A stretch of DNA of 5,076 nucleotides from a virus (IMGVR_UViG_3300018478_000044); one strand, 5' to 3'. Shown: positions 522-859, numbered from the stretch's first letter. Made by a program: numbers and translations. Notes: generated by a model not told the origin, from the letters alone.

Positions 522-859
522 AACTGTCTACCAACTGTCTACCGATATAATTGATTGATTTATTTAATGTTATTAACACATAACAAAAAAACAATCTGCA
601 AACTGTCTACCAACGGTCTACCGCATTAATACATTGATAATTAATGATTTTTACTAAATGGTAGACAGTGTAGACAGTTAAAAGAGAAATTTAAAAAATG
701 CCCCCTTAACTATCTGTTTTTTATATACCCCCCGTGGTTTAGGAATATAGAAATAACTGTCTACCTCTCTACCACATTGAAAATATCTTTATAATTCAAA
801 ATATTAATTGGTAGACGGTTGGTAGAGGGTTAAGTGAATCTGTCTACCAACCGTCTACC
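522..859. repeat. Iteron array, putative replication origin: twelve copies of an 11-bp AAC-N-GTCTACC repeat in six tandem pairs
   Basis: Copies counted directly. Forward pairs at 522-543 (AACTGTCTACC x2), 601-622 (AACTGTCTACC, AACGGTCTACC), 765-783 (AACTGTCTACC plus degenerate TCTCTACC) and 838-859 (CTGTCTACC, AACCGTCTACC). Reverse pairs at 660-679 (GGTAGACAG, TGTAGACAGTT) and 810-831 (GGTAGACGGTT, GGTAGAGGGTT). Pairs are spaced 11 bp, one helical turn. They are embedded in a visibly AT-rich stretch (about 544-720) immediately 3' of the replication gene. Confidence 0.8.

What the first reader, a model, noticed from the sequence alone, without database searches (positions are those of the whole stretch)
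522..859. Iteron array with mixed orientation, probable origin directly 3' of the replication gene
Twelve copies of AAC-N-GTCTACC sit in six tandem pairs at exact 11-bp spacing, four pairs forward and two reverse, within an AT-rich stretch suited to unwinding. The arrangement of replication gene followed immediately by its iterons is the pri/rep-ori layout of satellite elements. The octamer TGTCTACC differs by a TC/CT swap from the P4 alpha-binding type I iteron as I remember it (TGTTCACC), which would imply a related but distinct DNA-binding specificity.
Basis: partly seen in the sequence, partly recalled or inferred. Interest (0 to 1): 0.6.

Follow-up and report, generated by a model that had tools for sequence, protein, structure and literature searches.

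The report
Replication origin of a phage satellite
The repeat cluster is very probably the replication origin of a phage-parasitic chromosomal island (PICI) of Escherichia, where the island's own helicase-initiator binds; it is real but belongs to an origin type described for E. coli PICIs in 2018 and closely resembles the crr site of satellite phage P4.

Summary
The array is real. Twelve TGTCTACC-type sites lie at 522-859: nine exact GTCTACC cores and three with one mismatch. AACNGTCTACC at up to one mismatch gives 11 hits against 0.16 expected. They form six pairs, four forward and two reverse, but only four pairs are 11 bp apart; the others are 9 and 8 bp. The array fills the 26-33% GC gap between a 601-aa initiator gene (887-2692, minus) and a ProQ/FinO gene. 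The initiator is 49% identical to P4 alpha over its helicase and origin-binding domains (PDB 1KA8, E=6e-19). It is 43% identical to EcCICFT073 Pri-Rep, whose origin region was tested on a plasmid and carries the same core. All 80 related loci have an iteron cluster just 3' of the gene. Core sequence tracks two residues of the initiator's C-terminal wing in 82 of 82 proteins. The three least stable 30-mer positions in the window are array spacers, two of them between convergent iteron pairs. No second cluster exists in the island, so this is a single-site origin; its position and layout match P4 crr, not P4 ori. Verdict: interpretation supported; new member of a known kind; modest interest. No replication or binding experiment exists for this allele.

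The parts
887..2692 (-). Initiator gene (601 aa): a TOPRIM-like N-terminal domain, a D5_N/DUF5906 SF3 helicase, and a C-terminal winged-helix origin-binding domain.
   Evidence: Pfam D5_N, DUF5906 and Pox_D5. 49% identity to P4 alpha over residues 141-592. 43% identity to EcCICFT073 Pri-Rep over the full length. 75% identity to EcCIRM13514 Pri-Rep.
917..1222 (-). Coding region for the origin-binding domain, residues 491-592.
   Evidence: PDB 1KA8 (P4 alpha origin-binding domain), E=6.4e-19.
965..991 (-). Codons for the predicted wing loop C568-R576 (CTKGPDKGR). G575-R576 covary with the iteron class.
   Evidence: Translation. Class-separating columns. 82 of 82 association. Wing assignment comes from a low-confidence AF2 model, pLDDT 60.
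838..859 (+). Iteron pair 6 (ATCTGTCTACC, AACCGTCTACC), 11-bp spacing, nearest to rep.
810..831 (-). Iteron pair 5 (AACCGTCTACC, AACCCTCTACC), 11-bp spacing.
810..859 (-). Perfect 17-bp palindrome (810-826 and 843-859) formed by pairs 5 and 6. It makes a stable hairpin in the rep 3' UTR and may double as a terminator or cruciform.
   Evidence: Inverted repeat I6, 100% complementary. RNA fold -31.8 kcal/mol, z = -6.6. Both arms changed CG to TA together in strain ETEC1716.
774..809 (.). AT-rich spacer, 36 bp, 11% GC, between convergent pairs 4 and 5. It holds the least stable 30-mer of the whole window and is the best candidate for the unwinding site.
755..773 (+). Iteron pair 4 (AACTGTCTACC followed by TCTCTACC), 8 bp core to core.
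680..754 (.). Central 75-bp spacer, 31% GC. It contains the block CCCCCGTGGTTTAG, invariant in all 8 Escherichia alleles aligned. Its role is unknown.
660..679 (-). Iteron pair 3 (CACTGTCTACC, AACTGTCTACA), 9-bp spacing, sites overlapping.
623..659 (.). AT-rich spacer, 37 bp, 16% GC, between convergent pairs 2 and 3. Second candidate unwinding site.
601..622 (+). Iteron pair 2 (AACTGTCTACC, AACGGTCTACC), 11-bp spacing.
544..600 (.). AT-rich spacer, 57 bp, 19% GC, with an A7 tract.
522..543 (+). Iteron pair 1 (AACTGTCTACC twice), 11-bp spacing. It ends 18 nt upstream of the ProQ/FinO start codon.
1..503 (-). 5' part of the next gene, a ProQ/FinO-family protein. It marks the distal edge of the intergenic origin.
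   Evidence: Pfam ProQ, E=4e-23. Annotated in the homologous islands.

Best explanation
The array is the cis-acting vegetative replication origin of a PICI-type phage satellite integrated in an Escherichia chromosome.

Proposed mechanism. The island's 601-aa initiator is made from the operon that ends at 887. Its C-terminal winged-helix domain binds the TGTCTACC iterons. The array holds two modules, 601-679 and 755-831, spaced 154 bp apart. Each module is two forward iterons, a 36-37-bp spacer of 11-16% GC, and two reverse iterons. Initiator molecules held on the convergent iterons assemble the SF3 helicase rings on either side of the AT-rich spacer, melt it and load themselves, as proposed for SaPI Reps and P4 alpha. 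The outer pairs, 522-543 and 838-859, add binding capacity. The rep-proximal pairs also form a 17-bp palindrome that may terminate or stabilise the rep transcript.

Shown here: the repeats and their non-random clustering; homology of the initiator and its origin-binding domain; the same core in an origin region that was tested on a plasmid; universal rep-3' iteron clusters in relatives; covariation of iteron class with the domain's wing residues; minimal duplex stability in the spacers.

Inferred: binding of this protein to these sites, melting at the spacers, double-hexamer loading, and the source of primers. The N-terminal domain has only a degenerate TOPRIM-like fold, so host DnaG may be needed.
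For: Non-random array. AT-rich intergenic position 27 nt after the rep stop.

The initiator is P4-alpha-like: 49% identity over helicase plus origin-binding domain, and PDB 1KA8 at E=6e-19.

The gene order YlcI/YnfO, Icd-like, small ORFs, DUF4222, Rep, array, PerC matches EcCICFT073.

The EcCICFT073 region directly 3' of pri-rep holds 11 TCTACC cores. For that element the rep-mutant plasmid gave no colonies at the restrictive temperature, and deleting the ori significantly reduced colony numbers (PMC6092414).

In 80 loci from other Enterobacterales, class-specific cores occur at 17.7 per kb in the 400 nt 3' of rep against 0.61 per kb elsewhere.

Wing dipeptide and iteron class agree in 82 of 82 proteins, with at least 9 switches each on a helicase-core tree. 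RM13514 is 91% identical in the helicase core yet has wing EG and TGTTCACC. CFT073 is 45% identical yet has wing GV and TCTACC.

The three least stable 30-mer positions of the 5-kb window all lie in array spacers.

Convergent-iteron spacers across the loci cluster at about 15, 25, 35 and 45 nt. The window has 36 and 37; P4 crr has 35 and 35.

There is no second cluster in the window, the full N921 island or EcCICFT073.

The SaPI precedent is at least two iterons on each side of an AT-rich centre in opposite orientation, with self-loading Rep hexamers (PMC9371898).
Against: There is no experimental test of this allele.

In the EcCICFT073 test, deleting the ori only 'significantly reduced' colony numbers; it did not abolish them.

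The origin-binding domain and the array are 27 nt apart, so their covariation could partly reflect co-transfer as a cassette. It does not prove that the wing residues contact the variable bases.

The model of the origin-binding domain is of low confidence, pLDDT 60.

The closest well-studied relative, P4, needs a second site (ori) in addition to the array 3' of alpha.

The window itself does not contain the integrase or regulator genes. The island context comes from a 96-98% identical E. coli island.
Confidence: 0.85

Rival explanations
1. The array is a crr-like cis enhancer, as in P4. It binds the initiator and is needed in cis, but initiation takes place at a separate origin elsewhere in the element.
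For: P4 crr has the same position, directly 3' of alpha. It also has the same layout: two direct repeats, each with two forward type I sites, a 35-bp spacer and two reverse sites. The initiator is 49% identical to alpha.
Against: No second cluster of TCTACC-type sites exists in the window, in the complete 96-98% identical island, or in EcCICFT073. The EcCICFT073 pri-ori segment alone supported plasmid maintenance. The least stable DNA of the window lies inside this array.
Confidence: 0.06
2. The array is mainly a transcriptional element and not an origin. It would be a rep terminator or 3' hairpin combined with initiator-bound operators that control read-through or a promoter for the downstream ProQ/FinO-PerC genes.
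For: The 17-bp perfect palindrome 810-859 folds at -31.8 kcal/mol, z = -6.6, and both arms changed together in one allele. Iteron pair 1 ends 18 nt before the ProQ/FinO start codon. A weak promoter-like site on the minus strand at 771-744 overlaps pair 4.
Against: Promoter-like and terminator-like hits are no more frequent than in shuffles. The palindrome covers only 4 of the 12 sites, and the extra rep-proximal iteron pair that forms it with pair 5 is missing in relatives such as L013. The rep-3' array is conserved across elements whose downstream genes differ. A regulatory side role is compatible with origin function.
Confidence: 0.05
3. The array is a decayed, non-functional relic of an origin in a defective island.
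For: Three of the twelve cores are degenerate, and spacing is irregular in two pairs. In strain FDAARGOS_1302 an IS3-family element has cut the array at about window position 632.
Against: The rep ORF is intact, with Walker A (GPGGSGKS) and the arginine-finger region conserved against P4 alpha. The array occurs in 105 of 5426 complete E. coli genomes, and 98 of them cover at least 80% of it at 90-100% identity. The functional EcCICFT073 origin region is at least as degenerate, mixing CTGTCTACC, CTATCTACC and CTCTCTACC.
Confidence: 0.05

Closest known systems
Replication origin of the E. coli PICI EcCICFT073 (pri-rep-ori module; Fillol-Salom et al. 2018, PMC6092414)
   Same: The gene order is the same. 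The array lies directly 3' of a homologous initiator that is 43% identical over its full length, including the N-terminal domain. The iteron core is the same (T/C)TCTACC. Orientations are mixed and the iterons flank AT-rich DNA. The island has a single array.
   Different: Here the sites form regular 11-bp pairs and the array spans about 340 bp; in CFT073 it spans about 230 bp. In the rep direction the orientation pattern is --++--++----, against ++-+++--+-- in CFT073. The wing dipeptide is GR, not GV, and a 5-residue wing insertion (TKGPD) is present. The downstream gene is ProQ/FinO, not a small ORF followed by SSB. The integration site in the closest island is the tRNA-Thr gene beside proA, not ycfD-phoQ.
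Bacteriophage P4 crr (cis replication region), bound by the alpha protein
   Same: The position is the same, immediately 3' of the alpha-family gene. The layout is the same: two directly repeated modules, each with two forward sites, a 35-37-bp spacer and two reverse sites. The origin-binding domain is homologous (1KA8). The 8-mers differ only in the central dinucleotide, TGT-TC-ACC in P4 against TGT-CT-ACC here.
   Different: The module period is 154 bp here and 180 bp in P4. The spacers are much more AT-rich here, 11-16% GC against about 30%. P4 also needs a distant ori with six type I and three type II repeats, and no such second site exists here. P4 alpha carries a roughly 320-aa DnaG-type primase domain that is replaced here by a roughly 125-aa TOPRIM-like domain. 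The P4 satellite genes sid, delta and psu are absent from the homologous island.
EcCIRM13514 Pri-Rep and its origin (a published E. coli PICI allele)
   Same: It is the closest published initiator, 75% identical overall and 91% in the helicase core. A ProQ/FinO and PerC pair lies downstream.
   Different: Its iterons are P4-type TGTTCACC and its wing dipeptide is EG. The window therefore represents a different specificity class on a nearly identical helicase backbone.
SaPI origins and self-loading Rep helicases (SaPI1, SaPIbov1, SaPI5; PMC9371898)
   Same: The origin lies immediately downstream of rep. It has 6-12 short iterons, at least two on each side of an AT-rich centre in opposite orientation. 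A C-terminal winged-helix domain reads the iterons. Rep and ori are cognate-specific. The helicase core is distantly homologous (7OLA, E=9e-10).
   Different: The hosts are Gram-positive, the iterons are 5-6 nt, and sequence similarity outside the ATPase core is low. This is a shared design, not close kinship.

Membership tests
Gram-negative PICI pri-rep-ori replicon (Fillol-Salom 2018) | The origin lies immediately 3' of the replication initiator gene. | tested here: met
   The array starts 27 nt after the stop codon at 887-889 and fills the 383-bp intergenic gap.
Gram-negative PICI pri-rep-ori replicon (Fillol-Salom 2018) | Sets of iterons flank an AT-rich region that is the putative melting site. 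| tested here: met
   Convergent pairs flank spacers of 37 bp (16% GC) and 36 bp (11% GC). These are among the least stable DNA of the window.
Gram-negative PICI pri-rep-ori replicon (Fillol-Salom 2018) | The initiator is homologous to a PICI Pri-Rep. | tested here: met
   43% identity over the full length to EcCICFT073 Pri-Rep, E=1e-174. 75% identity to EcCIRM13514 Pri-Rep.
Gram-negative PICI pri-rep-ori replicon (Fillol-Salom 2018) | Island context: an integrase, an AlpA-type regulator, unidirectional transcription, no phage tail or lysis genes, and a size of about 8-15 kb. | tested here: inconclusive
   The window lacks int and alpA. The 96-98% identical E. coli N921 island, beside tRNA-Thr and proA, has an integrase, a 65-aa HTH regulator, an antirepressor and no structural genes annotated. 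No capsid-morphogenesis or terS gene was recognised there.
Gram-negative PICI pri-rep-ori replicon (Fillol-Salom 2018) | The rep-ori segment replicates autonomously in an initiator-dependent way, and a helper phage induces the island. | not testable with these tools
   Only the EcCICFT073 homologue has been tested (PMC6092414).
P4 replicon (alpha protein with ori and crr) | An alpha-type C-terminal winged-helix origin-binding domain. | tested here: met
   PDB 1KA8, E=6.4e-19, over residues 491-592.
P4 replicon (alpha protein with ori and crr) | The type I iteron TGTTCACC. | tested here: not met
   There are 0 GTTCACC sites 3' of rep here, against 11-12 TCTACC-type sites. The P4 sites were verified.
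P4 replicon (alpha protein with ori and crr) | Two separate cis sites, ori and crr, several kb apart. | tested here: not met
   There is a single cluster in the window, in the full homologous island and in EcCICFT073.
P4 replicon (alpha protein with ori and crr) | An N-terminal DnaG-type primase domain (zinc finger plus TOPRIM) in the initiator. | tested here: not met
   [not shown]
P4 replicon (alpha protein with ori and crr) | The satellite genes sid, delta, psu and epsilon. | tested here: not met
   None is annotated in the homologous island, and none was found among the window ORFs by Pfam or PHROGs.
Classical iteron plasmid origins (RepA, pi, TrfA type) | Tandem 17-22-bp direct iterons with DnaA boxes and a winged-helix-pair Rep that recruits host DnaB. 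| tested here: not met
   The sites here are 8-11 bp in mixed orientation. DnaA-box matches are at chance level, 12 against 10.6 expected. The initiator is itself an SF3 helicase.

The most novel reading that the evidence does not exclude
The alpha/Pri-Rep origin-binding domains of P4-like satellites and PICIs may use a simple, swappable recognition code. In this reading, two residues at the end of the wing loop ([K/R]-X1-X2-x-x-[S/T]-N) set the central bases of the iteron: xG for TGT-TC-ACC, GR or GV for TGT-CT-ACC, GN for C-CC-ACC. The 3' end of rep and the adjacent array would then move between elements as one cassette. This would create mutually orthogonal replication-specificity groups, which would let several satellites share a cell without cross-firing. 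The window would be an RM13514-type helicase backbone (91% core identity) that has acquired CFT073-type specificity.
Probability: 0.45. Interest if true: 0.45.

Novelty: new member of a known kind. Interest (0 to 1): 0.3.

Why it matters
The array is unannotated in every one of the 105 complete E. coli genomes that carry it; the features under the match are listed as 'none'. Recognising it marks the replication origin of a common family of Escherichia phage satellites.

The practical gain is a defined cis site and a predicted initiator-iteron specificity class, TGTCTACC with wing GR. This class differs from the P4-type class found on a 91%-identical helicase backbone. The pair gives a natural, near-isogenic system for testing how winged-helix initiators discriminate iterons.

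It may also explain how co-resident satellites avoid replication cross-talk. It does not change the known picture of how PICI and P4 origins are built.

Tried and rejected
- DnaA boxes (TTWTNCACA, up to 1 mismatch): 12 hits against 10.6 expected, and only one in the array. No support for a DnaA-dependent origin.
- Sigma-70 promoter and intrinsic terminator scan of 400-1000: not above shuffles.
- Lambda cos core in the homologous island: no meaningful match, so the array is not a cos site and the packaging signal remains unknown.
- Rfam at E up to 0.1: one sub-threshold spurious hit, Plastid-psbM, 34.7 bits against a gathering score of 52.7.
- Second iteron cluster (a P4-like ori): none in the window, the N921 island or EcCICFT073. 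This could not be tested for the long P4-type loci, because the 3-kb flanks stop short of where P4 ori would lie.
- Iterons conserved more than spacers among Escherichia alleles: the 8 alleles are 90-100% identical, too close for this to be informative.
- Primary P4 papers (Flensburg and Calendar 1987; Ziegelin 1993; Yeo 2002): not in the searchable library. P4 features were taken from the GenBank annotation instead.
- The iteron sequences printed in Fig. 2a of Fillol-Salom 2018 could not be read, as figures are not held. They are also absent from the supplements.
- The E. coli ED1a record, which holds the fourth published Pri-Rep allele, is not in the collection. I therefore cannot exclude that the window's allele equals that one.
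- The AF2 model of the origin-binding domain reached only pLDDT 60. It was used for topology only and was not searched against fold libraries.

Full report
OBSERVATION

The window's 383-bp gap lies between a 601-aa ORF (887-2692, minus strand) and the start of a ProQ/FinO-family gene (start codon at 503, minus strand). It holds a dense cluster of TGTCTACC-type sites.

- AACNGTCTACC with up to one mismatch gives 11 hits, all between 522 and 859, against 0.16 expected.
- The bare hexamer TCTACC occurs 12 times in 5076 bases, 11 of them in the array, against 1.28 expected.
- Listing cores with up to one mismatch gives twelve sites: nine exact GTCTACC, plus GTCTACA at 669(-), CTCTACC at 767 and CTCTACC at 821(-).
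- The claimed exact 11-bp spacing holds for four pairs only. The pair at 660/669 is 9 bp apart and the pair at 759/767 is 8 bp apart.
- The region has 26-33% GC against 42-64% around it.

HIGHER-ORDER ANATOMY

The segments 601-679 and 755-831 are two copies, 154 bp apart, of one module. Each module is two forward iterons, a 36-37-bp spacer of 11-16% GC, and two reverse iterons. Further pairs sit at each end of the array.

The three least stable 30-mer positions of the whole window fall in the spacers 774-809, 544-600 and 623-659.

The rep-proximal pairs 810-826 and 843-859 form a perfect 17-bp palindrome. On the rep transcript it folds at -31.8 kcal/mol, z = -6.6. In one E. coli allele both arms carry the same CG to TA change.

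THE PROTEIN

The 601-aa product has D5_N, DUF5906 and Pox_D5 domains.

- It is 49% identical to P4 alpha from residue 141 to 592, matching alpha residues 322-769. This region covers the SF3 helicase and the C-terminal origin-binding domain.
- The origin-binding domain hits the solved P4 domain 1KA8 at E=6e-19. The helicase core hits the SaPI5 PriRep structure 7OLA.
- The first 140 residues do not match alpha's DnaG-type primase.
- The conserved residues of this domain do not show the TOPRIM EG and DxD motifs. This is my own reading of the alignment and not a structure-based comparison.
- The same N-domain is fused to AAA_25 and DUF927-like modules in other proteins.

CONTEXT

The window is 96-98% identical to islands in E. 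coli and E. ruysiae.

In E. coli N921 the island lies beside a tRNA-Thr gene next to proA. It carries an integrase, a small HTH regulator, an antirepressor, a divergent YlcI/YnfO gene, an Icd-like gene, small ORFs, DUF4222, the initiator, the unannotated gap, ProQ/FinO and PerC.

This is the gene order of EcCICFT073, the type E. coli PICI (Table S1 of PMC6092414).

COMPARISON WITH WHAT IS KNOWN

[quoted passage not shown] They cloned the EcCICFT073 pri-ori segment on a thermosensitive plasmid. At the restrictive temperature the rep-mutant plasmid gave no colonies, and deleting the ori significantly reduced colony numbers.

I fetched that element. Its initiator is 43% identical to the window's over the full length. 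The 288 bp after its stop codon carry eleven CTGTCTACC, CTATCTACC or CTCTCTACC sites in mixed orientation. The window's array therefore shares its core with an origin region that has been tested on a plasmid.

In P4, the GenBank record places crr directly 3' of alpha. It consists of two 120-bp repeats, each with two forward type I sites, a 35-bp spacer and two reverse sites. P4 ori lies about 2.3 kb upstream of alpha. The window's array is therefore the positional and architectural counterpart of crr, not of P4 ori.

Neither the window, the full N921 island nor EcCICFT073 has a second cluster. The PICI version therefore appears to be a single-site origin.

WIDER SURVEY

A scan of one genome per species returned 80 loci encoding relatives. 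Every locus has a cluster of short repeats within about 15-350 nt after the stop codon. Class-specific cores occur at 17.7 per kb there against 0.61 per kb in the rest of the loci.

The cores fall into five classes:
- TGTTCACC, the P4 type, in 63 of the 83 arrays classified (80 loci plus the window, EcCICFT073 and P4).
- TGTCTACC, in the window, E. ruysiae, Kluyvera, Enterobacter, Lelliottia, Scandinavium, a Raoultella MAG and CFT073.
- GTCTCCACC, in Yersinia, Rahnella, Erwinia and others.
- ACTGTCCAC.
- AACTGTCCG, in Serratia.

In an alignment of the last 125 residues, only five columns separate the TCTACC class from the TTCACC class. Three of them (568, 575, 576) lie in the loop between the last two strands.

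I defined the motif as [K/R]-X1X2-x-x-[S/T]-N. The dipeptide predicts the class in 82 of 82 proteins:
- xG goes with TTCAC (62 proteins).
- GN goes with CCAC (9 proteins).
- GR or GV goes with TCTAC (8 proteins).
- GR also goes with TGTCCG (3 proteins).

On a tree built from the helicase core alone, each trait changes at least 9 times.

The published EcCIRM13514 initiator is 91% identical to the window's in the helicase core, yet it has wing EG and TGTTCACC iterons. The class does not follow the N-terminal architecture either. An Enterobacter hormaechei 790-aa P4-type alpha has wing GR and TCTACC sites.

This is good comparative evidence that the array is the cognate target of the origin-binding domain. 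One caution applies. The wing codons lie about 100 bp from the array, so co-transfer as a cassette would also produce this pattern. The wing assignment rests on a low-confidence model (pLDDT 60) plus homology to a winged-helix structure.

Spacers between convergent iterons cluster at 14-15, 23-25, 35-36 and 45 nt. That is roughly one helical turn per step, which suggests a face-of-helix constraint. Many of these loci are related Xenorhabdus elements, so the counts are not independent.

MECHANISM

The most likely mechanism follows P4 alpha and the SaPI Reps (PMC9371898).

1. The winged-helix domain binds the iterons.
2. Protomers on convergent sites nucleate helicase rings on both sides of the AT-rich spacer.
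3. The spacer melts and the helicase loads itself.

Binding, melting and ring geometry are inferred. The source of primers is open because the N-domain looks like a degenerate TOPRIM.

A secondary role for the rep-proximal palindrome, as a terminator or a 3' stabiliser, is possible. So is a role for the iterons next to the ProQ/FinO start in controlling read-through.

RIVALS

- A crr-like enhancer that needs a separate origin is disfavoured. There is no second cluster, and the CFT073 pri-ori plasmid was maintained.
- A purely regulatory element is disfavoured. The rep-3' array is conserved whatever lies downstream, and promoter and terminator scans are at background level.
- A dead relic is disfavoured. 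The initiator ORF is intact, and the array occurs in 105 of 5426 complete E. coli genomes. One strain does have an IS3-family insertion in it.
- DnaA boxes, lambda cos and Rfam families gave nothing.

NOVELTY AND SCORE

The kind of element is known: the PICI origin (2018) and P4 crr. The same iteron core is present in the tested EcCICFT073 origin region.

This allele is not any of the three published alleles I could retrieve. It is 43% identical to CFT073 and 75% to RM13514, which has a different specificity. O42 has a different helicase family, with AAAGTGAGG repeats. ED1a could not be fetched.

I therefore rate it a new member of a known kind, with interest 0.3. The part that might repay work is the apparent wing-iteron code and the cassette-like switching of specificity.

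Noticed in passing
[not shown]
   Followed up: partly
window 810-859: The two rep-proximal iteron pairs form a perfect 17-bp palindrome with a 16-nt loop. The RNA fold is -31.8 kcal/mol, z = -6.6. In E. coli ETEC1716 (L087) both arms changed CG to TA together, which preserves the palindrome.
   Followed up: partly
window 700-750: A GC-richer block, GCCCCCTTAACTATCTGTTTTTTATATACCCCCCGTGGTTTAGG, sits in the middle of the otherwise AT-rich array. CCCCCGTGGTTTAG is invariant in all 8 Escherichia alleles aligned. Its function is unknown; a host-factor site or a promoter for the downstream genes are possibilities.
   Followed up: no
L004-L083, plus window, P4 and CFT073 arrays: Spacers between convergent iterons are quantised at about 14-15, 23-25, 35-36 and 45 nt, that is, in steps of about 10 bp, across iteron classes. 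The loci are not phylogenetically independent.
   Followed up: partly
L089 (E. coli FDAARGOS_1302), insertion at a point equivalent to window ~632: An IS3-family element is inserted inside the AT-rich spacer of the array. It truncates the origin and removes the ProQ/FinO-PerC side.
   Followed up: no
L090:5725-5924 (EcCIO42): This published PICI has a RepA-family helicase in place of the alpha-type initiator. The gap 3' of it carries a different repeat, AAAGTGAGG, in both orientations. The rep-3' origin layout is therefore kept across unrelated initiator types.
   Followed up: no
window 4280-4359: There are three copies of the palindromic decamer TGTGCGC(A/C)CA, at 4280, 4303 and 4350. They lie in the divergent regulatory region between the Icd-like operon and the YlcI/YnfO gene and are probably operators of the island's regulatory switch.
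   Followed up: no
window 4555-4957 compared with L001:16532-16938: The right end of the window, with a 65-aa ORF at 4642-4839, is only 81% identical to the otherwise 97.7% identical N921 island. Window 4254-4554 has no match there. This looks like a recombination boundary in the regulatory region.
   Followed up: no
window 3403-3786, 2984-3184, 3177-3410 and 3761-3985 (-): The small ORFs upstream of DUF4222 hit overlapping PHROG families (phrog_340 and phrog_2512). The 127-aa ORF matches phrog_340 in two stretches, which points to duplicated or fused small domains of unknown function.
   Followed up: no
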